Source: an uncultured Gammaproteobacteria bacterium
Lineage (GTDB): Bacteria; Patescibacteriota; Microgenomatia; JAMCZE01
Assembly (NCBI GenBank): GCA_964609775.1
Contig: CAZSSJ010000002.1
Coordinates: 19,260 to 83,259, forward strand
DNA length: 64,000 bases
Reading direction: 5' to 3'
Shown here piece by piece: positions 50,592 through 64,000 of the stretch. The translations under genes were made by a program, and so were the position numbers. The notes below the pieces were generated by a model, which did no database searches, was not told where the DNA came from, and was given only the letters and a program-made list of their open reading frames with translations. Position 1 is the stretch's first letter. Every line of letters begins with the position of its first letter.

Positions 50592-51367
50592 CAGTCACCA
50601 AGCTTTCTATAGTGCTACTTAAAAAATTGCGGCAAGCAACTCCACTTGCAGCAAAGCTCGTTTTTCTAACAGGGAAATCAACGCAAGCCCTTCACCCGAA
50701 GCACCTCGTCGAAATCGAAAAGCCTTGGTATCTTGATTATCTTTCAAAGAACGATATTGTTCTCGACCTCGGCTGTGGCAACGGTCAAAATTCCCTCAAG
50801 GCAGCCAAGAAGGCCAAACATGTATACGGACTCGACACAAACCAGGCCAGTCTTAATCAAGGAAGATCCTTCGCTAGTCGACACAAGATCACTAATATTA
50901 CCTTCTCATTTCATGATTTGAACAACAAGCTGCTCTACCCCGACCAACGTTTCGACCGAGTACTATTCCTGGATGTCCTAGAACACCTAGGGACCGCCAG
51001 TCGCCAGCAGATAATGGGCGAAATTCACCGGATTCTGAGAACCGATGGCCTGCTGCTCCTAGCCGTCCCTAATAGTCAAACATCTTGGAAAAAGACGCAA
51101 AGGTCTGTAAGCGTGGACTCATTTACCGATCCAGACCATAAAATTGAATATTCGCTTGACGGGATCAAAAAATTTTGTAGTAAATGTAAGTTTAAACAAT
51201 TAAATATTAGTGGTATTACTTATGACAGCCCTTATGCTCCCTTAATTGACATTGCTGGAGGATTTTCACTGCAGCTGTATAAAAAGCTATCACTTTGGAA
51301 AAAAAATAAGATGAAAGGTGGCTTAACTGAAAGTATCGGTTTCAGATTAGTTTGTCAAAAAATGTAG
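50588..51367 (+). CDS. class I SAM-dependent methyltransferase
   Basis: Motif I VLDLGCGNGQNS, motif II RVLFLDVLEHL. ATGA overlap. Confidence 0.8.
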   Translation: MTVTKLSIVLLKKLRQATPLAAKLVFLTGKSTQALHPKHLVEIEKPWYLDYLSKNDIVLDLGCGNGQNSLKAAKKAKHVYGLDTNQASLNQGRSFASRHKITNITFSFHDLNNKLLYPDQRFDRVLFLDVLEHLGTASRQQIMGEIHRILRTDGLLLLAVPNSQTSWKKTQRSVSVDSFTDPDHKIEYSLDGIKKFCSKCKFKQLNISGITYDSPYAPLIDIAGGFSLQLYKKLSLWKKNKMKGGLTESIGFRLVCQKM

Positions 51368-51379
51368 CGCCATCTGATA

Positions 51380-52555
51380 ATGAAAATCGCATATATCGTA
51401 GACTATCTACCAAACTTAGATTCCAGGACAGATTTCAGTGGAGCAGAGGTCAGTGTCCAGCTGTTAGCGGCGGGTTTAAAAAAACACGGGGTCGAGATCA
51501 AGTTAGTTTCACCTGCCCAAGGTTTATATTCTTCACGAGGAAAAGTCTTTCCCTCTTTGCTGACAACAAATATTTTCTGGTTTTTTCTTTCCACTTTAAT
51601 AATTATCAGAAGCCTTCAGAGGGAAGAGATTGACTTGATTCACGCTCAGGGAAAGAACTCCCTAGTAGGAGCTTACTTGAGTAGTCTTTTTTTTAAAAAG
51701 CAACTTTTAGTTACCGTTAGGGACTATCGAGCCCTTTGTGACTTGGGTATGTGTTTTCTTCGGGGCAAGAAACACTGTACTTTCAAAAACTACTTTCAGC
51801 AGGACATTCCGTTTTTCGTCAGAAAATACAAGAAACAGACAGTTTTAAGATATCTCTATGCCTATCTTGTCGGGCTATACCAATATCCTCTTCGCCTTCT
51901 TTATCGTCATATTCTAAAAAAAGCTAATAAAGTCGTTTGTATCAGCATTGCCCAACAGAAGTTATACAATACATTTGGCATTGATAACACAATAGTAATT
52001 TATAACCCAGTGACTTTTGAAAAAGTCCACTATCAAAAGAAAAAACAATTATTTTTCGGCGGCAGATACACACTTGGCAAAGGAAAGGAAATTTTAAAAA
52101 TCATCCTTCCAAAATTCTTTCAACTTTATCCAGATTGGGAACTTATCTTTGCTGGTCGTGACAAGCTGGATATCGAACATCGAAACATCAGAACCCTTGG
52201 CCAATTGCCTTACAAGAGCTATCTAAGGTCAGTCGGGGAGTCATCCCTAGCGCTTGTTCCCTCTGTCTGGCCGGAGCCCTTCGGAAGGGCAGCGCTGGAC
52301 GCAATCTCTGTTGGGACACCGGTAGTTGCGACAAATGCTGGCGCCCTATCTGAAATAGTAGTTAGTGGCCGCTACGGAACCGTAAGTCAACCAAATACGC
52401 AAAGTTATTGGCAAGCCCTCCAAGAGGGAATGGCAAAAAGGAGCGGTCTTTCTGAACAGATCAAAAAAGACACCGAAAAATTGATCAAAAAATTTCAGGT
52501 CGATCCAGTTCAAGATCACCTCAGACTATATGAATCGTCACTACACAAATCTTGA
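51380..52555 (+). CDS. GT4 family glycosyltransferase
   Basis: VPSVWPEPFGRAALDAISVGTPVVATNAGALSEIV. Confidence 0.8.
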   Translation: MKIAYIVDYLPNLDSRTDFSGAEVSVQLLAAGLKKHGVEIKLVSPAQGLYSSRGKVFPSLLTTNIFWFFLSTLIIIRSLQREEIDLIHAQGKNSLVGAYLSSLFFKKQLLVTVRDYRALCDLGMCFLRGKKHCTFKNYFQQDIPFFVRKYKKQTVLRYLYAYLVGLYQYPLRLLYRHILKKANKVVCISIAQQKLYNTFGIDNTIVIYNPVTFEKVHYQKKKQLFFGGRYTLGKGKEILKIILPKFFQLYPDWELIFAGRDKLDIEHRNIRTLGQLPYKSYLRSVGESSLALVPSVWPEPFGRAALDAISVGTPVVATNAGALSEIVVSGRYGTVSQPNTQSYWQALQEGMAKRSGLSEQIKKDTEKLIKKFQVDPVQDHLRLYESSLHKS

Positions 52556-53150
52556 CTATCTATCGCGCTCGCGATGGGCTAGCTTTTACGTCCAAATTAA
52601 AGAAACCGTCAATCCCAAACCTGCCAACGTACTTGAAATCTGTAAGGGTTTCGGGCTCTTGTCTTTTGTCGTCAGAGGCATAGGAACAGACATTAAAACT
52701 TTAGATGTTGACCCTAAATTAAAGCCCGATTTTATTGGAGACGTACGTAGAATTCCCCTCAAAGCCAATTCTTTCGACGTTGTCACTTGTTTTCAAGTTC
52801 TTGAGCATCTTCCTTTTTCCGATTTCAAAATTGCCCTTTTGCAAATGAAACGAGTAAGTAAAAAATATATTCTTCTCTTTCTACCTGAACCCTATAGCAC
52901 CTTTGTCTATTTTGGCGCCAAGTTGATCCCGTTCATTCCTAAGCTTGAATTATTCCGAAAATTTGCTATGTCTGACCGATTTTTTCCGAAATTCGGGCTG
53001 AACAGTCCTCATTATTGGGAAATTGGAAGAAAAGGTGTTTCCTACCAAAAAGTTGAAAAATGTATCACAGCGTGCCAATTAAAAATTATTAAATCCTTTT
53101 ATCCGAAAGAAAACTTATATCACCACGTTTTCGTTTTGTCTAAATTATGA
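52530..53150 (+). CDS. class I SAM-dependent methyltransferase (Methyltransf_11/23-like)
   Basis: VLEICKGFG...FDVVTCFQVLEHLPF. Confidence 0.6.
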   Translation: MNRHYTNLDYLSRSRWASFYVQIKETVNPKPANVLEICKGFGLLSFVVRGIGTDIKTLDVDPKLKPDFIGDVRRIPLKANSFDVVTCFQVLEHLPFSDFKIALLQMKRVSKKYILLFLPEPYSTFVYFGAKLIPFIPKLELFRKFAMSDRFFPKFGLNSPHYWEIGRKGVSYQKVEKCITACQLKIIKSFYPKENLYHHVFVLSKL

Positions 53151-54190
53151 CACTTGGAATTCTTTTGCCGATGGGGAGCAGCCTTGAAGACATGGAGCTT
53201 CATGGCCAAAAGGAACGTTTCCAAAAATACTACCTCAATGTCTATAGACAGAGCTTTGAAAAAGTTATTGTCTTTAGCTATAAGGACTCTCCCCTTCATC
53301 GCTACTTCTATTCCCTAGCTCTCCCGTTAGTCAAGCGCAAAGATTTCACCACATGCGACGTCTTCCGATGCTTTCATTTAAGTTCCACGCCCCCGGCCAT
53401 TGTCGGGAAAATTCTATTTAACAAAAAGTTCGTCTTCAATTACAACTATGATTATAAAAAATGGGCGGTTATCGAAAAAAAACCCTTCCTGGTTCCATTG
53501 ATTCAACTTTTAGAGCAGGTAAGTTTTAGGTTGGCAAACCATATTTTTGTCGCCGACGAAAGAATGGCCGAATTTGCCAGAACGCTCAGAAGTGCAACAA
53601 AAATTACGAACATCCCCAACGGCGTGGACGTCACCATCTTTAGGCCAGCATTGCATAACAAAAAAAACAGCCAAAAAGTTATCCTTTCTGTAGGTCGGCT
53701 AGAAGAGCAAAAAAACTATGGGCAGCTTATCGCTGCCGTTGCCAACATTAGCCCAAAACCACATTTAATCATCATTGGTCGGGGAGCTTTAAAGGAGACT
53801 TTAGTTAGGCAAGCAGGTCGATTGGCAGTGGATATGACAATTATTGATGTGGTCCCCCACCTAGAGTTGCCAAAATATTATCAATCTGCTGATGTTTATG
53901 TTCAACCCTCCTTAGCGGAGGCTCCGGTAAAAACTCTTCTCGAAGCAATGAGCTGCCAATGTGCTTGTGTAGGGACCAGGGTTCCTGGCATTTCGGGAGT
54001 CTTAGAAGATGGAAAAAATGGATTGCTAGCCTCCTTAGAAACGAAAGATCTTCAGAAAAAGATTCAACAGGTTTTAAATAATCCAAAAACGGCAAAAAAA
54101 CTAGGGGAGCAAGCCAGAGTGACAATCATCAACCGCTTCAATATCAAAAAAATGATTAACAAAGAAATCTCCATTCTGAAAAGCATATGA
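53147..54190 (+). CDS. GT4 family glycosyltransferase
   Basis: SVGRLEEQKN...YVQPSLAEAPVKTLLEAMSCQCACVGTRVPG. ATGA overlap. Confidence 0.75.
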   Translation: MTLGILLPMGSSLEDMELHGQKERFQKYYLNVYRQSFEKVIVFSYKDSPLHRYFYSLALPLVKRKDFTTCDVFRCFHLSSTPPAIVGKILFNKKFVFNYNYDYKKWAVIEKKPFLVPLIQLLEQVSFRLANHIFVADERMAEFARTLRSATKITNIPNGVDVTIFRPALHNKKNSQKVILSVGRLEEQKNYGQLIAAVANISPKPHLIIIGRGALKETLVRQAGRLAVDMTIIDVVPHLELPKYYQSADVYVQPSLAEAPVKTLLEAMSCQCACVGTRVPGISGVLEDGKNGLLASLETKDLQKKIQQVLNNPKTAKKLGEQARVTIINRFNIKKMINKEISILKSI

Positions 54191-55242
54191 CAGTCTGCTA
54201 TTTTGGCTACTACCGACCCTTTCATTCTAGAAATCGCAACCTCATACTTGGTTTACGGAGAAATGGTGTTAACGTAATTGAATGCAATGCTGTAGTGCCG
54301 TTTATTCAAGGAAGATACTTTTGTCTTCTTGCAAAATACTTCCGCTATGGCACAGGGGCGGATGTGATTATTGTTGGTTTTCCTGGGCACACAGATGTGC
54401 CCCTTGCCTGGGCTTTAGCGAAAATTTTTCACCGAAAGTTAGTTTTTGACGCTTTTACTTCTATGTATTTAAACCTTGTGTATGACCGCCAGGATGTTGC
54501 TCAACATTCTTTGAAGGCTTTAGTCTACTGGCTAGTCGACTGGTTAAGTTGCCTGCTATCAGATAAAGTTCTGGTCGATACTTCCGATAACCAACAATAT
54601 TTTGCTAAAGAGTTTTCTGTTAAGGTGGATAAAATTGCCTGTATTCCTGTATGTTTTGACGAAAGTATTTTTAAACCGCAAAAAGCGATTAATGGTGATA
54701 GTTGTATCGTCGGTTGGCACGGCACTTTCCTCCCGCTTCAGGGGGTGGAGACTATTATCGCAGCAGCGCAAAAACTTAAGAACGTGAATATAAATTTTCG
54801 CCTTTTAGGCTACGGGCGAGAGAAAGACATGAGTGTTAAATTAGTAAAAAAGAAGGGCTTGAAAAATATTTATTTTTTTGATCGAGTAAATTACCAACGC
54901 CTGCCAGATTTTATCAGTGGCTGTGATATTTATCTTGGAGGACCGTTTGGCCAGAATTTAAAGGCCAACATGGTTATACCAAATAAGGTAGTAGAGGCAA
55001 TGGCCATGGGCAAGCCGGTAATTTGTGCTGACACACCTGCCATGCGGCGAGCTTTTGTTTCGGGAAAAGAAGTTTTGTTAACAACACAAAGTAATCAGCT
55101 TGCTTTAGCTAGGGCGATAATAAGTCTGAAGGAAAGCCCCAAGCTACGCGAAACCCTGGGTCATAACGCACTAAGGGCTGCTTCTTTCTATACTAGCAAG
55201 AATATTGGTCGCTTATTACTTCAAAAAATCGCCCAGCTATAA
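54187..55242 (+). CDS. GT4/GT1-fold glycosyltransferase
   Basis: WHGTFLPLQGVETII...NKVVEAMAMGKPVICADTPAMR. ATGA overlap. Confidence 0.7.
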   Translation: MTVCYFGYYRPFHSRNRNLILGLRRNGVNVIECNAVVPFIQGRYFCLLAKYFRYGTGADVIIVGFPGHTDVPLAWALAKIFHRKLVFDAFTSMYLNLVYDRQDVAQHSLKALVYWLVDWLSCLLSDKVLVDTSDNQQYFAKEFSVKVDKIACIPVCFDESIFKPQKAINGDSCIVGWHGTFLPLQGVETIIAAAQKLKNVNINFRLLGYGREKDMSVKLVKKKGLKNIYFFDRVNYQRLPDFISGCDIYLGGPFGQNLKANMVIPNKVVEAMAMGKPVICADTPAMRRAFVSGKEVLLTTQSNQLALARAIISLKESPKLRETLGHNALRAASFYTSKNIGRLLLQKIAQL

Positions 55243-55256
55243 TATACTTTCTAAAG

Positions 55257-56462
55257 ATGCGTAAGATAGGTTATCTAGAGGGGTTAAGAGGCATCGCTGC
55301 GTTCATTGTCGTCCTTAATCATTTTGCCGTATCCTTTTTCCCGGCATTGTATAACGGAAAGATAACCCAGGCTCATACCTTATCCTGGCTAGAATCGGCT
55401 ATCGCTAGTAGCCCTATTAATTTTTTTTATAATGGCAACTTTGCCGTCGCTGTTTTCTTTGTTCTTAGCGGCTTTGTCCTCTCATACAACTATTTCAAAA
55501 CTCTACGTGTAGAGGTAATTGTGTCCGGAGCAATTAAACGATATTTCCGGCTAGTGATTCCGGTTGCCTTTACTGTCCTGTTGGCCTACTTATTCATGAA
55601 ATTTTCATTTTTCTTTAACAAACAGGCCGGAGAGATAAGTTATTCGACTTGGTGGCTATCAAGATATTGGGAATTTGATACCAATCTAATAGATGTTTTA
55701 AATACCGCATTTATTAGAGTGCTCTTTTTTGGTGATGTTAGATTTAATCACATATTGTGGACGATGCGTTATGAGTTTTTTGGATCCATAATTGTATTCA
55801 CGACGTTATTTATCTTTCGACAAAGAAGGTATCGATATGCGGCTTATATCATTCTTAGTTTATGGTTTTTAAGGTCATACTATCTTCCATTTATCCTTGG
55901 TTTGGTTCTCTCCGACCTATATAGTCTTAAAAGATACACAGTTAAACTAAATAAAGATTTAAAAAGAATTTGTCTTCTATTGCTGGGATTTGTTGGTTTA
56001 TATTTAAGTTCCTGTCCCAGTGGAGCCCCAATAAGAAATACAATCTATGCCCCCTTGTTTATCTTGGATCGTTATCCCTACACCTTTTATCACATCTTAG
56101 GGGCTTTAATGCTCATGATTACTCTTTTAAATTGGACAGCGCTGCAAAACTTATTTTCAAACAGACTATTTATCTTTTTGGGCAGAATATCGTTTTCTAT
56201 GTATTTGCTTCATTTGATAGTGATTGGTTCCTTATCCAGTCTACTGTTAATTATTTTGACTCACTATTTTACCTATCCTGTTGCAGCTATGCTCGTCTTT
56301 GTGATATCGATGCCGGTCTTAGTATTTACCTCCTATTTAATGTACGTGCTGGTGGATAGTAAGGGTACCATCCTATCTAAAATTATTTGTCGTTGGCTCA
56401 CTGGGTCAATCAGGCGGCAACAATTCGCCAACCAGTTTGTCCTTGGTGGCAAAAAATCATAA
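55257..56462 (+). CDS. acyltransferase family 3 (OatA-like) membrane O-acyltransferase
   Basis: MRKIGYLEGLRGIAAFIVVLNHF... About 10 TM helices. Acyl_transf_3 signature. Confidence 0.85.
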   Translation: MRKIGYLEGLRGIAAFIVVLNHFAVSFFPALYNGKITQAHTLSWLESAIASSPINFFYNGNFAVAVFFVLSGFVLSYNYFKTLRVEVIVSGAIKRYFRLVIPVAFTVLLAYLFMKFSFFFNKQAGEISYSTWWLSRYWEFDTNLIDVLNTAFIRVLFFGDVRFNHILWTMRYEFFGSIIVFTTLFIFRQRRYRYAAYIILSLWFLRSYYLPFILGLVLSDLYSLKRYTVKLNKDLKRICLLLLGFVGLYLSSCPSGAPIRNTIYAPLFILDRYPYTFYHILGALMLMITLLNWTALQNLFSNRLFIFLGRISFSMYLLHLIVIGSLSSLLLIILTHYFTYPVAAMLVFVISMPVLVFTSYLMYVLVDSKGTILSKIICRWLTGSIRRQQFANQFVLGGKKS

Positions 56463-56471
56463 AATAGATTT

Positions 56472-57284
56472 ATGGAAATAATCATTCGACCAAAAAGTGT
56501 CTTCAATCTAGATTTTAAAGAAATCTGGCATTATCGCGAACTTTTTTACGTCTTTGCCTGGCGAGATATTAAAGTCCGTTATAAACAAACAGTTTTAGGC
56601 ATCTCGTGGGCTCTTTTTCAACCTCTAGTTACGACTGGAATATTTAGCATTTTTTTTGGAAAAATTGCCAAAATCCCTTCTGACCATATCCCATACCCGT
56701 TATTTGTTCTTACTGGATTGGTTTTTTGGAGCTTTTTTTCAAATAGTGTTACGGCGGCAAGTCAAAGCATGGTCGCCAGTGAAAACATCATCAAAAAAGT
56801 CTACTTTCCACGCCTGATTATTCCACTTTCCTCAATTGTGACAGCCGGGCTTGACTTTCTAATTTCCTTTTTGATGCTATTACTAGTAATGGTTTACTAC
56901 CGGTATTTTCCTCAATTTACCAGCCTGCTAGTTCTCCCAGTGTTGTTGCTTACTTTAATTCTCACTGCTGGGGGAATCGGTTTATTTACATCAGCGATTA
57001 ATGTCAAATATCGCGATGTCAGATATATCCTGCCGTTTTTCATCCAAATTGGGCTCTTCGTTACTCCCATTATCTATCCAATAAGTGTTATCTTGGACTA
57101 CCGTAAATGGCTTCTGATTCTCAATCCTCTGACCTCAGTAATCGAAACAGCGCGTGCCCTCTATTCGGGCAAACCAATAAATTATTTTCTCATCTCTTTA
57201 GGCTTTGCGATTTCGGTCGTCATATTTTCTCTCGGCCTTTACTATTTTCGCAAGACCGAAGCTTTCTTTGCTGACGTCGCTTAG
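56472..57284 (+). CDS. wzm: ABC-2 type polysaccharide exporter permease (Wzm/TagG-like)
   Basis: FKEIWHYRELFYVFAWRDIKVRYKQTVLGISWALFQPL. Six TM helices. Confidence 0.9.
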   Translation: MEIIIRPKSVFNLDFKEIWHYRELFYVFAWRDIKVRYKQTVLGISWALFQPLVTTGIFSIFFGKIAKIPSDHIPYPLFVLTGLVFWSFFSNSVTAASQSMVASENIIKKVYFPRLIIPLSSIVTAGLDFLISFLMLLLVMVYYRYFPQFTSLLVLPVLLLTLILTAGGIGLFTSAINVKYRDVRYILPFFIQIGLFVTPIIYPISVILDYRKWLLILNPLTSVIETARALYSGKPINYFLISLGFAISVVIFSLGLYYFRKTEAFFADVA

Positions 57285-57293
57285 ACTTTTGCT

Positions 57294-58574
57294 ATGGACA
57301 ATATTATTGAAGTCAGTGATCTATCTAAAAAGTACCGTCTCGGCCAAGAACAGCGCTATTACACGCTACGGGACAGCATTGCGTCTTTGTCTTCGCTTCC
57401 CAAACAGCTTTGGGGGGTGTGGGGAAATTTTAGCGAAATTCTTGAAAAAAATGAATTTTGGGCTCTTAAAGACGTTTCTTTTTCGGTCAAACGAGGCGAA
57501 GTTGTTGGAGTCATCGGGAAAAACGGTGCTGGTAAAAGCACTCTGCTTAAAATTCTGTCTCGCATCACTCCTCCAACCTATGGTCAAGCTCGACTGCGTG
57601 GTCGTGTAGCTAGCCTTCTGGAGGTTGGAACTGGTTTTAACCAGGAATTAACAGGCCGCGAAAATATCTTTCTCAACGGTGCTATCTTAGGCATGAGCCG
57701 CCAAGAGGTAAGAAGAAAATTCGACGAGATAGTCGCTTTTGCCGAAGTCGAAAGGTTCATCGACACGCCAGTGAAACGTTATTCTTCAGGGATGTATTTG
57801 CGCCTTGCCTTTGCCGTCGCCGCCCATTTGGAACCAGAAATACTTCTGGTTGACGAAGTCCTTTCCGTTGGTGATGCCCAATTTCAAGAAAAGAGTTTGG
57901 GAAAAATGCGCGAAATTACCCAGCAGGAAGGCAGGACAATAATATTTGTCAGTCACAACATGGGTGCAATTAACGCTCTTTGCAACCGGTGTTTATTGCT
58001 TGAACAAGGGCAGACTGTCGCTTTCGGCGAAACCGCCGAGGTCGTCACCAAATACTTATCGTCGAAAAGAAAATCAGTCAACAATATTTGGAAGATTCCG
58101 AAAAAACCGTCCGTCCCATTTTATGTTTCTAAAATGTGGTTAACTGACGAAAACGGGAAAGCTATTTCTCAAATAGAGATGGGAGAAAATGTTAACCTCA
58201 ATCTAGAAGCTAAAATTACTCAGGAAATCAGGGATGGAGTCCTTGCCGCTCTCGTCGCTACGGAAGGATCACCGCTTCTTTATATCTATGATACTGACAA
58301 CTCCCCAGAACTGCGTCGGAAGCGTCGGGTAGGTAAATATTTTGAACAGGTTCTCCTGCCCACATCCATATTTAAAGAAGGCGACTACACGATCAGTATA
58401 ATGATCGGCCACGGACAAGATAATCTCACCGACCAAAACTGTGAAATTTCCTTCAAGATCGTTAACACCAAAAGGGATTTGACACACCTCAGTTTCCGTA
58501 AAAACAGACTAGGATTTCTTTATCAGGAAACCCACTGGGAGGTGCGCCAACTTGGACGTCAAAAAGAGTACTAA
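57294..58574 (+). CDS. wzt: ABC polysaccharide exporter ATP-binding protein (Wzt/TagH-like) with C-terminal carbohydrate-binding domain
   Basis: Walker A GKNGAGKSTLLK, signature YSSGMYLRLAFA, Walker B LLVDEVLSVGD. An extra approximately 180-aa C-terminal beta-rich domain resembles Wzt_C. Confidence 0.9.
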   Translation: MDNIIEVSDLSKKYRLGQEQRYYTLRDSIASLSSLPKQLWGVWGNFSEILEKNEFWALKDVSFSVKRGEVVGVIGKNGAGKSTLLKILSRITPPTYGQARLRGRVASLLEVGTGFNQELTGRENIFLNGAILGMSRQEVRRKFDEIVAFAEVERFIDTPVKRYSSGMYLRLAFAVAAHLEPEILLVDEVLSVGDAQFQEKSLGKMREITQQEGRTIIFVSHNMGAINALCNRCLLLEQGQTVAFGETAEVVTKYLSSKRKSVNNIWKIPKKPSVPFYVSKMWLTDENGKAISQIEMGENVNLNLEAKITQEIRDGVLAALVATEGSPLLYIYDTDNSPELRRKRRVGKYFEQVLLPTSIFKEGDYTISIMIGHGQDNLTDQNCEISFKIVNTKRDLTHLSFRKNRLGFLYQETHWEVRQLGRQKEY

Positions 58575-59520
58575 CCACCTTGTCCGGTACTTAGACAGGG
58601 CCTTTGGAGTCAGATCAGTTTTTCCTCTAAACCCGGTCAGAAAAAGGGCCAGAAAGGAACTTCTTAGACGGCTATCATCCGGAATTTATAAATTCCAGGA
58701 GATAAATTGTCCCTCCTGTGCCAGTCATAGATTTACAATCTTGGCTAAACAGGACATGTACGCCCTGCCGCATCTTGTGGTCATTTGCCTCTGTTGCTCG
58801 CTGGTTTATACGCGACAAAGATTGACGGAAAAATCTTTGTCAAACTTTTATCAAAATCTCTACCAGCAGTTAGACCGGGGTAGGGATTTGCCAAAAGAAG
58901 AATATTTCCGTTTAGAATCTAAAAAAGGACAAGACATTTTCCACTATATGTTCAATAACTCTTTGCTACCTCCTAAAAACACACTCATTGTTGAAATTGG
59001 TTGTGGTGTTGGAGGCGTACTTTATCCATTCCGAAAGTACGGTTATGAGATAATAGGTTGCGATTTCAATCAAGACTATATCAATTTTGGCATCACCACC
59101 CGCGGTCTTAATCTAAAAGCTGGAGGATTGAAAGAGATATCAAAAGTCCTCTTTAAAAGCAAAAAGAAAGTAGGTCTAGTCATTTATGAACAAGTATTTG
59201 AACATCTACCTGACCCCAAAAAAGAATTAACACAACTTAAAAAAATTATGACATCAAACACTTTACTCTATCTTGGCGTTCCAGGAATTAAAAATATTCG
59301 TCATCACTACCAGGAAAATTTTCGTGCATTCCTTCAATTTCCCCATTTGACCTATTTTGAACTGTCAACTCTTAAATCTCTGCTTGCTAGTCAGGGATTT
59401 CAATTATTAAAGGGGACTGAGAGAATTAGAGGAGTTTTTAAACTGGGTCAGAAAAGAAATATCCTCCTCACCAACCCGGATGGGATTATAACCTATATTC
59501 AAAATTTGAAATTTATCTAA
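58552..59520 (+). CDS. class I SAM-dependent methyltransferase with N-terminal zinc-ribbon (CxxC...CxxC)
   Basis: CPSCASH...CLCCS, then motif I IVEIGCGVGGVL and IYEQVFEHLPDP. Confidence 0.75.
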   Translation: MDVKKSTNHLVRYLDRAFGVRSVFPLNPVRKRARKELLRRLSSGIYKFQEINCPSCASHRFTILAKQDMYALPHLVVICLCCSLVYTRQRLTEKSLSNFYQNLYQQLDRGRDLPKEEYFRLESKKGQDIFHYMFNNSLLPPKNTLIVEIGCGVGGVLYPFRKYGYEIIGCDFNQDYINFGITTRGLNLKAGGLKEISKVLFKSKKKVGLVIYEQVFEHLPDPKKELTQLKKIMTSNTLLYLGVPGIKNIRHHYQENFRAFLQFPHLTYFELSTLKSLLASQGFQLLKGTERIRGVFKLGQKRNILLTNPDGIITYIQNLKFI

Positions 59521-59532
59521 TTTGCCATCCCT

Positions 59533-60258
59533 ATGGCTTTGGAAAAGCAAGACCTAACGCTGCTCCTTAGATTAAGAAAACAATATCCCGAAGGAAAAAA
59601 TCTGTGTATTTTAGGCGATTGCACTTTTCATTTTACCGATGAAACACTCAATCGAAAGTGTGGAATTAAATTTAAAGGGCAAGCAAAACAGACGACTTTA
59701 AAGTCTTTTAGCCAAGCCTATGGCTTCGAAACAGCGGTGACTATAGATATTGACGGCAATCCAACCCTTAAATTCGATTTACAAAAGAAGCTCCCTCGGA
59801 ATTTGATCGGAAAATTTGATTGGGTTATTGATGCTGGCACGTTATTCTGGTGTTTTGATATTGCCGGGATTTGGGAAAATATCCTCCTGCTTCTTAAGCC
59901 TCACGGTTGTGTGTTTCACATTGATGCCTTAACCGGCTATTTTGGCCGGGGTTATTATTCTTTGCATCCACGGTTGTTTAGCGATTTCTATAGCCAGAAT
60001 GGCCTAAAAATTATTACGTTCGCTTACCGTCTCAGGCCACCATCCCTTAATATTATCGAAAAAAGGTTCCGGAGACTTGAGTGGCAACCTTTTCCGCCAA
60101 GCCACATGTTTTTAAAAAATGCGGATAAATTTAATATGGAATTTTCTGATAAAAACACCACGGACCCGTCAATTGTGCCAAATGATGCCGTTTTGGCCTG
60201 TTTCGCGGTAAGGGCGAAAAAAGTGCCTTTCCAAACCGTTTTACCGTCAAATATTTAA
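59533..60258 (+). CDS. hypothetical protein (possible degenerate methyltransferase fold)
   Basis: ORF with good coding appearance. LCILGDCTF...DWVIDAGTLFW pattern loosely resembles the MTase motif I/post-I region. No firm assignment. Confidence 0.4.
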   Translation: MALEKQDLTLLLRLRKQYPEGKNLCILGDCTFHFTDETLNRKCGIKFKGQAKQTTLKSFSQAYGFETAVTIDIDGNPTLKFDLQKKLPRNLIGKFDWVIDAGTLFWCFDIAGIWENILLLLKPHGCVFHIDALTGYFGRGYYSLHPRLFSDFYSQNGLKIITFAYRLRPPSLNIIEKRFRRLEWQPFPPSHMFLKNADKFNMEFSDKNTTDPSIVPNDAVLACFAVRAKKVPFQTVLPSNI

Positions 60259-60276
60259 TTACTTGAGTTAATACCT

Positions 60277-60915
60277 GTGCCAAATAACGCCGATATTCTT
60301 ATTGTTGTAGCTCACCCGGACGACGAGTCCTTATGGTTTGGCGAAGGAATTCACCAGCTGGTAGCTAGGGGCAAAAATATAATTGTCCTTTGCCTCTCAG
60401 GTGGATCAAATCCAATCCGAAGCGCCGAATTTAAAAAAGCCTGCTTAAGACTCAAAGTTAAAGGCAAGATGCTGAACAATCCTGATCGAGGGATGCCGCG
60501 TTTGCAGACTAGCCCAAGTGACCTAGATTTGGTCGATTGGCATCCCGAATATGTGATAACTCATGCACCGTGGGGAAATGAACGACATCATCCCCACCAC
60601 CAACAGTGCTTTCAAATCTCCCGGTCATGGGCTTTAAAAGGGGGAATTCCGTTTGGTTATTTCTCGGAAAAAAAACCTCTCATTCTGAATCCTTTAATAG
60701 AAACGATCGAGTTTTCAGTCAACCGTCCGAGGAAAAACGCCCTTTTGTCCATCTATGATTCAGAAATTTCCGGACTTCGCGACTACGAAGCCTACCACCA
60801 CGACAAGGAATATCTAATTATCGAGCGAAAATATTTTTCCCGCATTTCCAAGATATTCACTAGGCTTTGCCAAACCTTAAGTTCTATTTTCGAATCGCGA
60901 GGACCACGAACGTGA
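60277..60915 (+). CDS. PIG-L/LmbE-family N-acetylglucosaminyl deacetylase
   Basis: GTG start. ILIVVAHPDDESLWFG is the AHPDDE zinc-binding motif. HPHHQQ appears downstream. Confidence 0.8.
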   Translation: MPNNADILIVVAHPDDESLWFGEGIHQLVARGKNIIVLCLSGGSNPIRSAEFKKACLRLKVKGKMLNNPDRGMPRLQTSPSDLDLVDWHPEYVITHAPWGNERHHPHHQQCFQISRSWALKGGIPFGYFSEKKPLILNPLIETIEFSVNRPRKNALLSIYDSEISGLRDYEAYHHDKEYLIIERKYFSRISKIFTRLCQTLSSIFESRGPRT

Positions 60916-61011: not shown

Positions 61012-62154
61012 ATGCCGTGCATATTAAAAAAACTGGCAAGGAAAAGTCCGGGTATAGTCACTTTTACTCATAACGAAGCCCTATATGGTTTACCGGCGAG
61101 ATCGCGTAAGGTTAAAAACTACATTACCCAAACCTCTGGGAAAAGATGGATTTATGGCGTTCATCTTCAGGGCAGCTTGAAACATCTGAAGGAGTGGCCA
61201 CTTGAGCCCTGGCAAGCATTCATTTCTTGGTCGAACCCAAAGTCCCCATTTCTGTCAAATGTCCCCACCGAAAAACTAATTGATATTAATCACATTAATC
61301 TTCTACCCGAATTTGGGTTTACCCCACGCCCTAAGATTTGGGACATCATCATTATTTCTCGGCCATCAAAAATTAAAAGAATTCAGGAATCAGTTTTCAT
61401 CATTAAAAAATTAATGTTGAAAAGACCTGAGTTAAAAACAATTTTTATCGTTCCAACTCCCAGTCGGCAAGCCAAAGACATTGACCGGAGTTTTTTTGAA
61501 TTGCCCAAAAGGTTATTTTCTACTAAAGAGATGAAAAATACATCATTTATTGTTTCACCGACTGAAAGTTTCGGAAATTTTCCCGTTTCCTCAGAACTAA
61601 TATCAAAATTGATTTCACAGTCAAAATTTTTACTGTTAACTTCTCACCGTGAAGGTGGGCCACGGGCGATTGGCGAAGCGCTTCTGGCGGGAACACCCTG
61701 CATTATATCTAAAAATTTAGACACGGGAATCGTGGGCGTTTTTGACAATAAAAATACTCTCACAATCGACGACAATATCGATCTAGCCACGCAGCAAATT
61801 AATCAAGGCTTGCAAAATTACTCTTCATTTAAAATTGATGATAAAAAAATCTGCCGCTTTTTCAGTGAGCGGCATAATAAGCCAATATTTAAAGCCAAAT
61901 TATCAAAACTACTAACACAAATGAGTTACCAGGTGGCGGGAGAATGGTATCTTGAAGATTTGTCTTTTCGGCTCTGCGGTCACGGTCGAAAATTCAGTTT
62001 TCAATCCCTGGACGACGACCGACAATTCTTTTTTTGGTTTGATAAGATTACTTCAGTAAATCCATATGATGAAGATGGTCTGATTTATCACCCCGAATCA
62101 TTATCAGACTATGCTCTTCGGAAACTAAAAAGGTTATGGCAGACAAGACGCTGA
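61012..62154 (+). CDS. GT4-like (GT-B fold) glycosyltransferase, divergent
   Basis: C-terminal SHREGGPRAIGEALLAGTPCIISKNLDTGIV aligns with the GT4 E-x7-E region. The N-terminal half is unassigned. Confidence 0.6.
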   Translation: MPCILKKLARKSPGIVTFTHNEALYGLPARSRKVKNYITQTSGKRWIYGVHLQGSLKHLKEWPLEPWQAFISWSNPKSPFLSNVPTEKLIDINHINLLPEFGFTPRPKIWDIIIISRPSKIKRIQESVFIIKKLMLKRPELKTIFIVPTPSRQAKDIDRSFFELPKRLFSTKEMKNTSFIVSPTESFGNFPVSSELISKLISQSKFLLLTSHREGGPRAIGEALLAGTPCIISKNLDTGIVGVFDNKNTLTIDDNIDLATQQINQGLQNYSSFKIDDKKICRFFSERHNKPIFKAKLSKLLTQMSYQVAGEWYLEDLSFRLCGHGRKFSFQSLDDDRQFFFWFDKITSVNPYDEDGLIYHPESLSDYALRKLKRLWQTRR

Positions 62155-63015
62155 TATTTTTTCTCCTCATGATTCCTGGCACCCTGCTCCTCGGAATCAA
62201 TGACGTTCTTGCTCGAAAGATTCTTCGTTCCGGGGTGGCCGACAGTCTTCTTGTGGGGCTAATGTTCTTGGCCTCGGGAGTTCTTGGCCTTGCCCTTTTA
62301 TCTCTTTTTGGTCTTCCGGAAATAAAAAATGGCTTTTGGCTGGTTTTTTCGGGAACTGTAATTCTCAATGTTTTTGGTCAGGTGGCTTGGTACCGAGCCT
62401 TCAAACTCGAGAGGTATCTTTACTTTCTCCACTGTGCCTCTTGACCCCGCCCCTCGTCATTTTCACCGGCTCCTCCTTCTTCACGAACAGCCAACACTTG
62501 CCGGTGTCAGCGGGATCCTGATTACCACACTGGGTTTGTTAGTCCTCCTCCAGCCGGATCTTTTATCAACAGAGCTAAAAATAAAAGCTGTTGTCTTGAG
62601 AAAAGGCGTGGTCTACGGCATTATCGGCGCCATCCTATTTTCCTTTTCTTTTCCCTTGGACAAAATCACCATATCAAAACCTTCAGGTCTCGTTTTGGCA
62701 GCTGGAATGAGTACGGCCGTCGGTCTAACGACCCTTCTCTACAGCCTTGTGACGAGCAGTGGACAGCGTGCTAATCCTCATCTTCTCATCAAAGAAAAAA
62801 CCCTCATATTTCTAATCATCACTATCTTTGCTGGCACCGTGCTCGTTTCCCAAGCCCTCCTCTACGCTCCCGTGGCCAACGCCGCCAGTGTTAAAAGGCT
62901 CTGGTCCCTCTGGGCTGTGATCTTGGGCGGGAAGTTTCTCCACGAGAGTCACATCAAAGAAAAAATTATTGCCACAGTCATTATGGCCTTGGGGATTTTT
63001 CTGCTCTCAGTTTAG
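62136..63015 (+). pseudogene. EamA/DMT-family transporter disrupted by two -1 frameshifts (near 62425 and 62480)
   Basis: Frame A (62136..62444) encodes TM1-3, ending ...GQVAWYRAFKLE. Frame C encodes VSLLSPLCLLTPPLVIFTGSSFF (TM4). Frame B (62368..63015) continues with HEQPTLAGVSGILITTLGLLVLL and a second EamA half. Together the three frames rebuild a canonical 10-TM EamA protein. Confidence 0.5.
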
Positions 63016-63588
63016 GGGTAGGGAAGTTGGGTCAACTCTTTTAGCCTGAAGTAATAAATTACAAAAATCTCGTACCGCGCCGCTACCAGCCTCCCGTGAT
63101 GCTGTGAAATGGGCGATGTCCTTGATAATCTTCTCCGCTCCGGCAGGGCAAGCCGCCAGACCGACCTTTTTCATCACTGGGTAATCGCCCAAATCATCGC
63201 CCATAAACGCACATTCATCCCAAGCAAGACCCAGTTTTTTCAGCCAATTTCCAACGACCTTGACTTTCCCTTCTCCCGCCGCCTGGACAAAAACGTCTAC
63301 TTTAGGCCACTTGCCGGATTTAGCCGAAGGCAAACTGTTTAATTTTTCAGCGAATTTTGGCAAGAAATTGTCGCCCGTTGCAGTGACAAAGCAGATTCTC
63401 AGGCCTATCCCGCGCAGAAGCGAAATCCCCTGGCCATCAACATGGCTTCTAACGCGTTGGACTTCACCCTTTTCGGAGTCAAACCAGACGGTCGCCGAAA
63501 AAAGGACCCCGAGCGACCCAAAGCCGGCCGCTTTAATTTTTTTAGCTTGAGCTAGAACCTTACTCTTTTGTGTCTTTCTTTTTACCAT
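63007..63588 (-). CDS. KdsC/YrbI-family HAD (IIIA) sugar-phosphate phosphatase homolog with non-canonical motif I
   Basis: GDDLGDYPVMKKVGLAACPAGA and GSGAVRDFCNLLL match KdsC (GDDLIDWPVMEKVGL / GGRGAVREVCDLLL). Motif III Lys is present. The nucleophile motif DVDGVL is replaced by GSLGVL. Confidence 0.7.
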   Translation of the reverse strand: MVKRKTQKSKVLAQAKKIKAAGFGSLGVLFSATVWFDSEKGEVQRVRSHVDGQGISLLRGIGLRICFVTATGDNFLPKFAEKLNSLPSAKSGKWPKVDVFVQAAGEGKVKVVGNWLKKLGLAWDECAFMGDDLGDYPVMKKVGLAACPAGAEKIIKDIAHFTASREAGSGAVRDFCNLLLQAKRVDPTSLPLN

Positions 63589-64000
63589 TGTTAAGTTGTT
63601 TTTTTAAAAAGCTTTCGGCTAAAGACCAGTCGGCCGGTTCGTCAATGTCAATCGCCTTTTCTTCCGGCATGACATAGACACCAATTTTACCACCCAAGCG
63701 ATTTTTATAAGTCTCTAAGACTTCTTTCTTCGTCAGGTAAAACGCCCCATTTTCATTGACCACGCCTTCAAATTCCTGTCGTCTGGGACGATGCAAGTAG
63801 TCATAGTTTAGCGGCTTGCCGTCTAGTGTCCAGTAGAACTTTTTGTACAGTATTCCAGTTAGCATTGAATCCCAGCCATTTTCAAAGAACAATTCAATCG
63901 CCTGGTCCAAATCCTCGCTGGTCGTAAATGGCGATGTGGCCTGAATCAGATTTAAAACGTTAAAATCCTTTATGAGTGTCGCAAAATGGAGCATTACCGA
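63560..64000 (-). CDS. acylneuraminate / nonulosonate cytidylyltransferase family (NeuA/KdsB-like), C-terminal part (N-terminus beyond window end)
   Basis: ATSPFTTSEDLDQAI...NYDYLHRPRRQEFEGVVNENGAFYLTKKEVL...GGKIGVYVMPEEKAIDIDEPADWSLAE fits the CTP_transf_3 C-terminal pattern. Overlaps the KdsC-like gene by 29 nt. Confidence 0.7.
   Translation of the reverse strand, partial: SVMLHFATLIKDFNVLNLIQATSPFTTSEDLDQAIELFFENGWDSMLTGILYKKFYWTLDGKPLNYDYLHRPRRQEFEGVVNENGAFYLTKKEVLETYKNRLGGKIGVYVMPEEKAIDIDEPADWSLAESFLKKQLNNGKKKDTKE

What the first reader, a model, noticed from the sequence alone, without database searches (positions are those of the whole stretch)
55257..59520. ABC-transporter-dependent glycan export module with CBM-bearing Wzt and flanking methyltransferases (chain-terminator capping model)
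Wzm (56472..57284) and Wzt (57294..58574) are textbook. Wzt carries an extra C-terminal domain of the kind that, in E. coli O8/O9a and related systems, binds the methyl or phosphomethyl cap added by a terminator enzyme. A zinc-ribbon methyltransferase follows immediately (58552..59520), and two more methyltransferases lie at 50588 and 52530. The same locus also contains a Wzx-like flippase (13423..14877), so two different export routes coexist.
Basis: partly seen in the sequence, partly recalled or inferred. Interest (0 to 1): 0.5.

Follow-up and report, generated by a model that had tools for sequence, protein, structure and literature searches.

The report
Capped-glycan ABC exporter cassette, CPR bacterium
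A candidate-phyla-radiation bacterium carries a standard ABC exporter for surface sugar chains, and its extra sugar-binding domain travels across unrelated microbes with the same four modifying enzymes, which probably make the "finished" end-tag the exporter checks before export.

Summary
Wzm (56472-57284) and Wzt (57294-58574) are clear homologues of solved Wzm-Wzt transporters. The Wzt C-terminal 170 residues fall below Pfam's Wzt_C cut-off. A profile of the domain and an AlphaFold model nevertheless place it with the solved Wzt carbohydrate-binding domains of Aquifex, Raoultella O12 and E. coli O9a. A methyltransferase with four invariant cysteines follows. The methyltransferases at 50588 and 52530 and the Wzx-like gene at 13423 are also real.

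The methyltransferase is not WbdD-like: it has no kinase and no coiled-coil ruler. Its closest solved relatives are NDP-hexose 3-C-methyltransferases. No multi-domain polymerase is present.

The functional unit is larger than reported. Wzm, Wzt with its binding domain, the zinc-ribbon methyltransferase, a divergent methyltransferase-fold protein (59533-60258), a PIG-L/LmbE de-N-acetylase (60277-60915) and a divergent GT4 (61012-62154) recur together, in shuffled order, in at least five unrelated metagenomic loci. The polymer-building glycosyltransferases differ between those loci.

The host is a Microgenomates (CPR) bacterium. I read the set as a portable "cap and export" cassette, perhaps making a de-N-acetylated, methylated amino-sugar cap. 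The cap chemistry is inferred, not shown. Interest is moderate.

The parts
55257..56462 (+). Membrane acyltransferase (Acyl_transf_3, about 8 predicted TM segments). Probably O-acylates the glycan. It belongs to the variable part of the locus, not to the conserved cassette.
   Evidence: Pfam 77.5 bits. TM scan. No orthologue next to the cassette in L003, L004, L007, L086 or L087.
56472..57284 (+). Wzm, the ABC-2 permease of the glycan exporter.
   Evidence: ABC2_membrane 69.8 bits. PDB matches: 9qfx 7.5e-20, Aquifex Wzm 6m96 3.6e-19, TarG 9e-16.
57294..58574 (+). Wzt, with a nucleotide-binding domain (about aa 53-255, nt 57450-58058) and a C-terminal carbohydrate-binding jelly-roll domain (about aa 270-426, nt 58101-58571).
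   Evidence: 8dku/7k2t E 1e-67. C-terminal-domain profile against 8dky/6o14 E 4e-13. AF2 pLDDT 85.9. The top 15 Foldseek hits are all Wzt binding domains.
58552..59520 (+). Zinc-ribbon class I SAM methyltransferase. The Cys4 motif lies at nt 58708-58797 and the methyltransferase domain at about nt 58969-59409. The TTG start overlaps wzt by 23 nt.
   Evidence: Methyltransf_23 56.4 bits. Four invariant Cys. Best PDB relatives are MtmC 4rv9 at 6e-14 and TcaB9 at 2e-7; WbdD reaches only 0.027.
59533..60258 (+). Divergent methyltransferase-fold protein with no Pfam hit of its own and a degenerate SAM motif I (ILGDC). It is a conserved cassette member.
   Evidence: 23 of 48 family members hit Methyltransf_12/11/31. 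Family profile against JHAMT, E 4e-4. AF2 pLDDT 94.7. Foldseek top hits are JHAMT, BioC, PNMT and NNMT. Orthologues lie next to Wzt in L001, L003, L007, L086, L087 and L089.
60277..60915 (+). PIG-L/LmbE-family (CE14) de-N-acetylase with the AHPDDE metal-binding motif. It is a conserved cassette member.
   Evidence: PIG-L 60.2 bits. Sequence read. Orthologues in L001, L003, L004, L006, L007, L086, L087 and L089.
61012..62154 (+). Divergent soluble GT4-like glycosyltransferase. It is a conserved cassette member.
   Evidence: Glycos_transf_1 27.6 bits against a cut-off of 26.4. 40-46% identical orthologues in L001, L003, L007, L086 and L087. The only PDB hints are BshA-type GT4s at a non-significant E 0.065.
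49356..55242 (+). Variable polymer-building block: GT4 (49356), methyltransferase (50588), GT4 (51380), methyltransferase (52530), GT4 (53147), GT4 (54187).
   Evidence: Pfam. No orthologues covering at least 50% of the query in the other cassette loci, apart from one 23%-identity GT4 match.
13423..14877 (+). Wzx-like flippase (second export route), lying among GT-C enzymes and small GT2s.
   Evidence: Polysacc_synt_3 160.7 bits.
63007..63994 (-). HAD phosphatase (63007-63588) and a CTP_transf_3 cytidylyltransferase (63560-63994, cut by the window end). Together they indicate a CMP-ulosonic-acid pathway convergent on the operon.
   Evidence: Pfam. On the full contig, a 233-aa CTP_transf_3, a PhyH protein and a NeuB-AP_endonuc_2 fusion follow.

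Best explanation
The region encodes an ABC-transporter-dependent pathway for a polyprenol-linked surface glycan in a Microgenomates (CPR) bacterium.

Proposed mechanism:
- Cytoplasmic single-domain GT4 and GT2 enzymes build the chain. These lie at 43-55 kb, interleaved with two methyltransferases and an acyltransferase.
- A conserved, horizontally portable four-enzyme set adds and tailors a terminal residue. The set is a divergent GT4, a PIG-L/LmbE de-N-acetylase, a zinc-ribbon methyltransferase and a second methyltransferase-fold protein.
- My best guess for the cap chemistry is as follows. A HexNAc is installed by the GT4, de-N-acetylated by the PIG-L enzyme, then methylated.
- The Wzt binding-domain dimer binds this cap and licenses Wzm-Wzt to thread the finished chain across the membrane.
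- Outside the membrane, the glycan is presumably attached and further decorated by the many GT-C enzymes of the same locus.

Shown: homology of Wzm and Wzt, the fold of the binding domain, the folds and families of the four enzymes, and their conserved linkage.

Inferred: that a cap exists, that these four enzymes make it, what its chemistry is, and where the glycan ends up.
For: - Wzm and Wzt are homologous to solved transporters.
- The binding domain is supported by profile and by fold.
- In all characterised systems the binding domain reads a terminal cap and only capped chains are exported (PMC9445017; PMC11231755).
- The six genes recur together in shuffled order in the window, L087, L086, L003 and L007. 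They recur partly in L001/L002, L004, L006 and L089. The chain-building glycosyltransferases of those loci are not orthologous. That is what one expects for a cap-plus-exporter unit that is independent of the repeat unit.
- Within this Wzt clade, the best-conserved stretch of the binding domain (G-x-G-Q-x-N-x-T-D) aligns with the Aquifex cap-trapping loop 352-356. In the top 120 Wzt relatives only P0001, P0002, P0003 and P0006 carry both signature motifs, and all four sit next to the cassette.
- A GT4 paired with a CE14 de-N-acetylase is the recurrent GlcN-installing pair (MshA/MshB, BshA/BshB, PIG-A/PIG-L, BtrM/BtrD). This is established knowledge; a review of the LmbE superfamily, PMC4101496, is listed.
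- The methyltransferase-fold protein resembles small-molecule N- and O-methyltransferases.
Against: - No glycan structure or binding data exist.
- Pfam Wzt_C is below its cut-off.
- The Aquifex methyl-pocket Trp362 is not conserved, so a methyl cap cannot be inferred from the pocket.
- The zinc-ribbon methyltransferase's nearest solved relatives act on NDP-sugars, not on glycan termini.
- Most of its 80 GTDB relatives are not next to Wzm/Wzt.
- L001 lacks the zinc-ribbon methyltransferase, and L088 has Wzt plus that methyltransferase without the other three enzymes.
- Motif I of the second methyltransferase-fold protein is degenerate, so it may not bind SAM.
- A CMP-ulosonic-acid pathway sits beside the operon and could supply the cap instead.
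- No coiled-coil ruler is present, unlike all characterised terminators (PMC11231755).
Confidence: 0.55

Rival explanations
1. The cap is a (possibly modified) ulosonic or nonulosonic acid, as in Klebsiella O12/O4, where a Kdo cap is read by Wzt. The CMP-sugar would come from the adjacent HAD, cytidylyltransferase and NeuB genes. The de-N-acetylase, the methyltransferases and the PhyH dioxygenase would tailor that acid rather than a hexosamine.
For: - HAD and CTP_transf_3 lie at 63007-63994.
- PhyH and NeuB-AP_endonuc_2 lie just beyond the window.
- CTP_transf_3, HAD, NeuB or PhyH recur beside the cassette or the zinc-ribbon methyltransferase in L004, L007, L086, L087, L088, L027, L054 and L001.
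- The Raoultella Kdo-binding Wzt domain 5hno is among the top fold matches.
- Novel CMP-Kdo terminators with methyltransferase-like topology exist (GT137; PMC11231755).
Against: - The cassette glycosyltransferase carries a GT4 signature, and GT4 enzymes use UDP/GDP-sugars, not CMP-sugars (established knowledge).
- The CMP-sugar genes are on the opposite strand or at variable distance.
- They are absent from the sequenced parts of L003, where only PhyH is present.
- No known Kdo or sialyl transferase family was detected.
Confidence: 0.2
2. The GT4 and PIG-L pair, with the methyltransferases, builds or modifies the reducing-end primer/adaptor or an internal residue. An example would be a GlcN on the lipid carrier, as PIG-A/PIG-L do on phosphatidylinositol. 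The enzymes would then co-travel with the transporter because Wzm-Wzt recognises that lipid-linked head group. The binding domain would bind something else.
For: - PIG-L-family enzymes act on lipid-linked GlcNAc in GPI synthesis (established knowledge).
- Portability of a "primer plus exporter" unit would also explain conserved linkage with variable polymer glycosyltransferases.
- No WecA- or WbaP-type initiating enzyme lies in the window.
Against: - This does not explain why a distinct binding-domain clade, with a conserved trap-loop motif, tracks the four enzymes.
- In all studied systems the binding domain reads the non-reducing end (PMC9445017, PMC11231755).
- Methylation is a classic cap, not a primer feature.
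Confidence: 0.15
3. The zinc-ribbon methyltransferase works on a nucleotide sugar, like its nearest solved relatives MtmC and TcaB9. It would make a methylated monomer that is then incorporated, either as backbone sugar or as a pre-formed cap donor. It would not be a WbdD-style enzyme acting on the polymer end.
For: - Profile match to the D-mycarose 3-C-methyltransferase 4rv9 at E 6e-14, spanning the second CxxC and the methyltransferase core; TcaB9 and KijD1 at 2e-7 to 1e-5.
- The same Cys4-plus-SAM-domain layout.
- L086 and L087 place an NDP-sugar dehydratase, nucleotidyltransferase and reductase trio inside or beside the cassette.
- Most family members lie in glycan loci without Wzt.
Against: - The protein lacks the C-terminal sugar-nucleotide-binding domain of that family. 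It ends at aa 322 and has no PF08421 or PF08484 hit.
- The H-E-H motif region differs, reading Q-x-P-H here.
- The window has no NDP-4-keto-sugar pathway.
- The closest orthologues keep tight adjacency to wzt.
Confidence: 0.25
4. This is a WbdD/WbdA-type system as in E. coli O8/O9a. A coiled-coil ruler terminator (methyltransferase with or without kinase) would be docked on a multi-domain polymerase and would set chain length.
For: A methyltransferase lies immediately after a binding-domain-bearing Wzt, and the E. coli O9a Wzt binding domain 2r5o is among the fold matches.
Against: - WbdD 4azw scores only E 0.027, about 59th on the list.
- No kinase domain.
- No heptad or coiled-coil segment in 15 soluble proteins, while the GCN4 and tropomyosin controls were detected.
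- No glycosyltransferase longer than 411 aa.
Confidence: 0.04

Closest known systems
Aquifex aeolicus WzmWzt O-antigen exporter with a binding domain that recognises 3-O-methyl-mannose/rhamnose caps (PDB 7k2t, 8dku, 8dky, 6o14; PMC9445017)
   Same: - Same two-gene architecture.
- Wzt aligns end to end (E 1e-67).
- The binding domain is homologous by profile (4e-13) and is the best fold match.
- Wzm is homologous.
- A methyltransferase-linked cap is plausible.
   Different: - Only 16-18% identity in the binding domain.
- The methyl-lid Trp362 and pocket residues Thr346 and Ala348 are not conserved (Ser368 and Met370 here; no aromatic residue at the Trp position).
- The host is a CPR bacterium that presumably lacks LPS.
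- A distinct four-enzyme cassette accompanies the transporter.
E. coli O8/O9a and Klebsiella O3/O5 polymerase-terminator system (WbdA, WbdD, Wzt with binding domain; PDB 2r5o, 4azw; PMC3482155, PMC11231755)
   Same: A binding-domain-bearing Wzt next to a SAM methyltransferase. The concept is that only terminated chains are exported.
   Different: The methyltransferase is not a WbdD relative. There is no kinase, no coiled-coil ruler and no multi-domain WbdA-like polymerase.
Klebsiella O12 / Raoultella terrigena (WbbB, beta-Kdo cap, Wzt binding domain 5hno) and K. pneumoniae O4 (GT137 alpha-Kdo terminator; PMC11231755)
   Same: The binding-domain fold matches. A CMP-ulosonic-acid pathway lies beside the locus, so an acid-sugar cap is conceivable.
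   Different: No GT99, GT137 or WaaA-like transferase was recognised and no coiled coil was found. The cassette instead contains a GT4, a CE14 enzyme and methyltransferases.
GT4 plus CE14 (PIG-L/LmbE) glucosamine-installing pairs: MshA/MshB, BshA/BshB, PIG-A/PIG-L, BtrM/BtrD (established knowledge; review PMC4101496)
   Same: An adjacent GT4-like enzyme and a PIG-L-family de-N-acetylase with an intact AHPDDE motif. The weakest-level PDB hints for the GT4 are BshA enzymes (not significant).
   Different: None of those pairs is linked to an ABC glycan exporter or to methyltransferases. NCBIfam scores for BshB and MshB are far below their cut-offs. The acceptor here would be a polymer end.
NDP-hexose 3-C-methyltransferases MtmC, TcaB9, KijD1 (PDB 4rv9, 3ndi, 5t64)
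   Same: An N-terminal Cys4 zinc module followed by a class I SAM domain. This is the best profile match in the PDB (6e-14).
   Different: The protein lacks the C-terminal substrate-binding domain. The catalytic H-E-H region differs. The genomic context is a transporter cassette, not a deoxysugar pathway.
S-layer glycan pathway of Geobacillus stearothermophilus NRS 2004/3a: ABC exporter with an extended Wzt, 2-O-methyl-rhamnose cap made by WsaE (recalled from memory, not checked here)
   Same: A precedent, in a bacterium without an outer membrane, for a capped glycan exported by a Wzm-Wzt pair and then transferred to a surface protein.
   Different: There the methyltransferase is fused to rhamnosyltransferase domains (WsaE). 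No PIG-L/GT4 set is involved. The relationship was not tested with these tools.

Membership tests
Wzm-Wzt glycan ABC exporter dependent on a carbohydrate-binding domain | ABC-2 permease (Wzm) homologous to solved Wzm or TarG | tested here: met
   ABC2_membrane 69.8 bits. PDB matches: 9qfx 7.5e-20, 6m96 3.6e-19, 6jbh 9e-16.
Wzm-Wzt glycan ABC exporter dependent on a carbohydrate-binding domain | Wzt nucleotide-binding domain homologous to solved Wzt | tested here: met
   8dku/7k2t E 1e-67; 6amx (nucleotide-binding domain only) 2.9e-64.
Wzm-Wzt glycan ABC exporter dependent on a carbohydrate-binding domain | C-terminal jelly-roll carbohydrate-binding domain (Wzt_C) fused to the nucleotide-binding domain | tested here: met
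   Pfam Wzt_C is below its cut-off (24.1 against 30.4 bits) and the single sequence finds nothing. A profile of 31 C-terminal domains hits 8dky/6o14 at 4e-13. The top 15 fold matches of the AF2 model (pLDDT 85.9) are all Wzt binding domains, with TM-score on target 0.57-0.69.
Wzm-Wzt glycan ABC exporter dependent on a carbohydrate-binding domain | Cap-binding pocket residues of a characterised binding domain (Aquifex Leu300, Thr346, Ala348, Trp362) | tested here: not met
   Alignments place Ser368 and Met370 at Thr346 and Ala348, with no aromatic residue at Trp362. Specificity therefore differs or is unknown.
Wzm-Wzt glycan ABC exporter dependent on a carbohydrate-binding domain | The binding domain binds the non-reducing terminal cap and export requires it | not testable with these tools
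   Needs binding assays and genetics.
WbdD-type chain terminator (E. coli O8/O9a) | Methyltransferase domain specifically related to WbdD | tested here: not met
   The profile of the methyltransferase family hits WbdD 4azw only at E 0.027, behind about 58 other methyltransferases. The single-sequence search does not list it.
WbdD-type chain terminator (E. coli O8/O9a) | Kinase domain (O9a type) | tested here: not met
   No kinase family in the Pfam or NCBIfam scans of 43-63 kb.
WbdD-type chain terminator (E. coli O8/O9a) | C-terminal coiled-coil molecular ruler | tested here: not met
   A crude heptad scan found no segment in 15 soluble proteins, while the GCN4 and tropomyosin controls were detected. 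The methyltransferase ends at aa 322, and the AF2 model of the 241-aa protein is compact. No dedicated coiled-coil predictor was available.
NDP-hexose 3-C-methyltransferases (TcaB9/MtmC/TylCIII) | N-terminal Cys4 zinc-binding module | tested here: met
   C53, C56, C79 and C82 are invariant in 9 sequences. The second CxxC aligns with MtmC.
NDP-hexose 3-C-methyltransferases (TcaB9/MtmC/TylCIII) | Homologous SAM-binding core | tested here: met
   4rv9 E 6.2e-14 over profile positions 65-281; TcaB9 2e-7.
NDP-hexose 3-C-methyltransferases (TcaB9/MtmC/TylCIII) | C-terminal sugar-nucleotide-binding domain (Pfam PF08484) and N-terminal PF08421 signature | tested here: not met
   No such Pfam hit at E up to 0.01. 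The protein is 322 aa, against 416-426 aa for TcaB9 and MtmC.
GT4 plus CE14 (PIG-L/LmbE) glucosamine-installing pair | PIG-L domain with a metal-binding AHPDD(E) motif | tested here: met
   PIG-L 60.2 bits. The sequence reads VVAHPDDESLW and HHPHH.
GT4 plus CE14 (PIG-L/LmbE) glucosamine-installing pair | Adjacent retaining GT4 glycosyltransferase | tested here: inconclusive
   Glycos_transf_1 scores 27.6 bits, just above the 26.4 cut-off. PDB profile hits to BshA are not significant (E 0.065).
GT4 plus CE14 (PIG-L/LmbE) glucosamine-installing pair | UDP-GlcNAc donor, and de-N-acetylation of the transferred GlcNAc | not testable with these tools
   Needs enzymology.
Wzx/Wzy-dependent pathway (second route) | Wzx-family flippase | tested here: met
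   Polysacc_synt_3 160.7 bits at 13423-14877.
Wzx/Wzy-dependent pathway (second route) | Wzy polymerase or Wzy_C ligase, and an initiating phosphoglycosyltransferase | tested here: not met
   No Pfam hit to these families in any ORF of at least 150 aa. Four polytopic proteins without Pfam hits (11676, 16645, 36082, 45235) remain unassigned.

The most novel reading that the evidence does not exclude
The six-gene set is a previously undescribed, horizontally mobile "cap-and-export" cassette. It comprises Wzm, a distinct Wzt binding-domain clade, a zinc-ribbon methyltransferase, a degenerate-motif methyltransferase-fold protein, a CE14 de-N-acetylase and a divergent GT4.

On this reading it installs a new kind of chain-terminating cap, either a de-N-acetylated, N- or O-methylated amino sugar or a tailored ulosonic acid. 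It would do so without the coiled-coil ruler found in every characterised terminator.

In this CPR bacterium it would hand a finished glycan to an unusually large battery of about 20 GT-C enzymes on a cell with no outer membrane.
Probability: 0.3. Interest if true: 0.6.

Novelty: new variant of a known kind. Interest (0 to 1): 0.4.

Why it matters
Wzm-Wzt transporters with a carbohydrate-binding domain are the quality-control step of ABC-dependent glycan assembly. Only a handful of caps (methyl, methylphosphate, Kdo) and terminators are known. All of those are from Gram-negative O antigens and all have coiled-coil rulers.

A conserved, ruler-less four-enzyme cassette that co-travels with its own binding-domain clade would add a new cap chemistry and a new termination logic. 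Because the cassette combines with unrelated polymer-building enzymes, it could serve as a modular export tag for glycoengineering.

It also gives a concrete handle on cell-surface glycan biosynthesis in CPR bacteria, whose envelopes are essentially uncharacterised. If the cap turns out to be an ordinary O-methyl sugar, the locus is just one more member of a well-known pathway.

Tried and rejected
- The C-terminal domain alone against the PDB by phmmer gave only noise; a profile was needed.
- An exact 45-mer of the window was searched in the GTDB representative genomes and gave no match. The source was identified instead through a 100% protein match.
- An exact-sequence look-up of the 322-aa methyltransferase found nothing on record, because public gene calls start at Met69.
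- NCBIfam gave only sub-threshold generic hits for the methyltransferases, the PIG-L enzyme and the GT4.
- Promoter and terminator scans of 54-64 kb gave counts at chance level.
- tblastn of the cassette GT4 against PLSDB plasmids gave no match.
- Literature searches for Wzt together with LmbE/PIG-L, and for CPR together with Wzt, found no paper linking them.
- I considered reading the 241-aa methyltransferase-fold protein as a GT137-like Kdo transferase. GT137 has a methyltransferase-like sheet topology. I dropped this as untestable: GT137 has two beta/alpha/beta domains plus a coiled coil and no solved structure, whereas this protein is a single compact domain.
- I considered the WbdD analogy and rejected it.
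- I considered 50588 and 52530 as the terminators. They are not conserved with the transporter, so they more likely methylate backbone sugars.

Full report
**1. What is in the sequence**

The whole 64-kb window is essentially one + strand glycan locus. The finding's interval and its surroundings read, in order:

| Coordinates | Product |
|---|---|
| 49356 | GT4 |
| 50588 | methyltransferase |
| 51380 | GT4 |
| 52530 | methyltransferase |
| 53147 | GT4 |
| 54187 | GT4 |
| 55257-56462 | Acyl_transf_3 membrane acyltransferase |
| 56472-57284 | Wzm |
| 57294-58574 | Wzt |
| 58552-59520 | methyltransferase |
| 59533-60258 | 241-aa protein with no Pfam hit |
| 60277-60915 | PIG-L |
| 61012-62154 | weak GT4 |
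| 62368-63015 | EamA |

Two convergent genes on the minus strand follow: a HAD phosphatase and a cytidylyltransferase. Gaps between genes are 0-100 nt or the genes overlap, so this is one operon. Consensus promoter and terminator scans were at chance level.

**2. Checking the observation**

Wzm scores 69.8 bits for ABC2_membrane. It matches solved Wzm and TarG permeases at E 7.5e-20 to 9e-16. Wzt aligns with full-length Aquifex aeolicus Wzt (8dku/7k2t) at E 1e-67 over residues 53-383.

- Pfam Wzt_C scores 24.1 bits, below the gathering cut-off of 30.4.
- The isolated domain finds nothing in the PDB as a single sequence.
- A profile of 31 homologous C-terminal domains hits the crystallised Aquifex Wzt binding domain at E 4e-13.
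- An AlphaFold model (pLDDT 85.9, pTM 0.82) has as its 15 best Foldseek matches only Wzt binding domains. These are Aquifex 6o14/8dky (8dky is bound to 3-O-methyl-mannose), Raoultella O12 5hno (Kdo cap) and E. coli O9a 2r5o.

The fold criterion is met.

The methyltransferase has four cysteines (C53, C56, C79, C82) that are invariant in nine homologues, which confirms the zinc-ribbon description. That alignment also supports the long TTG-start ORF. Public gene calls start at Met69 and cut off the first CxxC. The other two methyltransferases and the Wzx-like gene are confirmed by Pfam.

**3. Source organism**

A PMT_2 protein of the window (23183-24859) is 100% identical to UY21_C0001G0057 of Microgenomates group bacterium GW2011_GWA1_48_10. 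Contigs of about 112-140 kb from groundwater metagenomes show the same gene order through the whole finding. The host is therefore a CPR/Patescibacteria bacterium.

From general knowledge, not tested here, such bacteria lack an outer membrane and LPS. "O antigen" is therefore the wrong label. The product is more likely an S-layer or protein-linked glycan, a wall polymer or a lipoglycan.

**4. The methyltransferase is not WbdD-like**

Single-sequence and NCBIfam searches give only generic class I hits. A family profile finds as its best solved relative the D-mycarose 3-C-methyltransferase MtmC (4rv9, E 6e-14). The alignment runs from the second CxxC through the SAM core. TcaB9 and KijD1 follow at 2e-7 to 1e-5. 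WbdD (4azw) appears only at E 0.027, about 59th on the list.

There is no kinase domain. A crude heptad scan detected the GCN4 and tropomyosin controls but found no coiled-coil segment in any of 15 soluble proteins between 43 and 62 kb.

The protein also lacks the C-terminal substrate domain of the C-methyltransferases. It is therefore a relative of that family, not a member.

**5. The conserved unit is larger than the finding**

The methyltransferase family is broad. There are 98 relatives in the GTDB representative genomes, bacterial and archaeal, and 80 loci were fetched. Most do not lie next to Wzm/Wzt.

The closest orthologues, and the closest Wzt relatives, share a recurring set with the window: Wzm, Wzt with binding domain, zinc-ribbon methyltransferase, the 241-aa protein, PIG-L and the GT4-like protein.

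| Locus | Gene order or content |
|---|---|
| L087 | Wzm, Wzt, 241-aa protein, methyltransferase, PIG-L, GT4 |
| L086 | same as L087, with three NDP-sugar genes inserted |
| L003 | Wzm, Wzt, methyltransferase, PIG-L, GT4, 241-aa protein |
| L007 | Wzm, methyltransferase, Wzt, 241-aa protein, PIG-L, GT4 |
| L001/L002 | lacks only the zinc-ribbon methyltransferase |
| L004 | lacks the 241-aa protein |
| L006, L089 | short contigs showing fragments of the same set |

Order is shuffled while membership is kept, which argues for functional coupling.

The chain-building GT4s, the methyltransferases at 50588 and 52530, and the acyltransferase have no orthologues in those loci. L088 carries Wzt with a binding domain plus the zinc-ribbon methyltransferase and nonulosonic-acid genes, but none of the other three enzymes.

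**6. The unknown members**

*The 241-aa protein.* It belongs to a sizeable family: 1883 cluster representatives at E up to 1e-3.
- 23 of 48 sampled members hit Methyltransf_12/11/31.
- The family profile hits juvenile-hormone acid methyltransferases at E 4e-4.
- The AlphaFold model is confident (pLDDT 94.7). It matches JHAMT, BioC, PNMT and NNMT, which are small-molecule O- and N-methyltransferases.
- Its motif I is degenerate (ILGDC), so SAM binding is not certain.

*PIG-L.* It has the AHPDDE metal-binding motif.

*The GT4-like protein.* It is just above the Pfam cut-off (27.6 bits against 26.4). Its only PDB hints are non-significant matches to BshA.

**7. Mechanistic reading**

In every characterised case, the Wzt binding domain binds a cap at the non-reducing end, and only capped chains are exported (PMC9445017; PMC11231755). 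A unit that keeps its own binding-domain clade together with four tailoring enzymes, while the polymer enzymes vary, is what a portable "cap plus exporter" cassette should look like.

The Aquifex methyl-lid Trp362 has no counterpart. Only four of the top 120 Wzt relatives carry both signature motifs, and all four sit next to the cassette.

A GT4 paired with a CE14 de-N-acetylase is the classic GlcN-installing pair (MshA/B, BshA/B, PIG-A/L, BtrM/D; established knowledge). My best guess is therefore a terminal HexNAc that is de-N-acetylated and then methylated. This step is inference.

**8. Rivals**

(a) The cap could be a tailored ulosonic or nonulosonic acid. A HAD phosphatase and a cytidylyltransferase lie at the window end. 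PhyH and NeuB-AP_endonuc_2 lie just beyond it. Such genes recur beside the cassette elsewhere.

(b) The GT4/PIG-L pair could make a reducing-end primer rather than a cap.

(c) The zinc-ribbon methyltransferase could act on an NDP-sugar, like its solved relatives.

(d) The WbdD-type ruler model fails three defining features.

**9. Novelty and score**

Wzm and Wzt with a binding domain are new members of a well-known kind. The accompanying conserved, ruler-less cassette with a de-N-acetylase is not described in any paper I could find. No paper in the searchable library combines Wzt with LmbE/PIG-L. I therefore rate the finding as a new variant of a known kind. Interest is moderate at 0.4, because the cap chemistry is only inferred.

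Noticed in passing
window 358-47593: About 21 polytopic GT-C-like membrane proteins lie in one operon-like array with 8 small GT2s and a Wzx-like flippase. They comprise YfhO x4, PMT_2 about x10, PTPS_related x2-3, a GT87, a PIG-V-like protein and several with no Pfam hit. The paralogues are old, at 27-47% identity. This is a striking investment for a small CPR genome.
   Followed up: partly
window 58552-58756: Public gene calls for the methyltransferase (254 aa, P0121, L092-L094) start at Met69 and remove the first CxxC of the zinc ribbon. Alignment with homologues supports the TTG start at 58552, which overlaps the end of wzt by 23 nt.
   Followed up: yes
window 63007-63994 and beyond (L093/L094 17751-21206): A convergent HAD phosphatase and a CTP_transf_3 cytidylyltransferase lie at the window end, the latter cut by it. 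On the full contig a PhyH dioxygenase and a NeuB-AP_endonuc_2 fusion follow. Similar CMP-ulosonic-acid genes recur next to the cassette or the methyltransferase in L004, L007, L027, L054 and L086-L088.
   Followed up: partly
window 50000-62000: G+C is 0.39-0.42 here, against 0.43-0.51 in the rest of the window. This coincides with the ABC-transporter block, and the cassette's nearest relatives come from unrelated taxa. Both points are consistent with horizontal acquisition.
   Followed up: no
window 60967-60986: A perfect G+C-rich hairpin, CCTCGGGC-GTAA-GCCCGAGG, lies in the 96-nt gap between the PIG-L gene and the GT4-like gene. This is the only sizeable intergenic gap inside the cassette.
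   Followed up: no
window 48342-49349: A gene of the enolase superfamily (MR_MLE_C, 96.7 bits) is embedded among glycosyltransferases. Its best sub-threshold NCBIfam hits are L-Ala-D/L-Glu epimerase and o-succinylbenzoate synthase. This is unusual in a glycan locus.
   Followed up: no
window 34475-35122 (- strand): This is the only minus-strand gene inside the locus. It encodes a PaaX_M / Cas2-like domain protein and is possibly the locus regulator.
   Followed up: no
L001/L002 5864-6367: The closest Wzt relative's locus is preceded by a NusG-paralogue gene and interrupted by toxin-antitoxin and KilA-N genes between wzm and wzt. This shows the cassette tolerates insertions.
   Followed up: no
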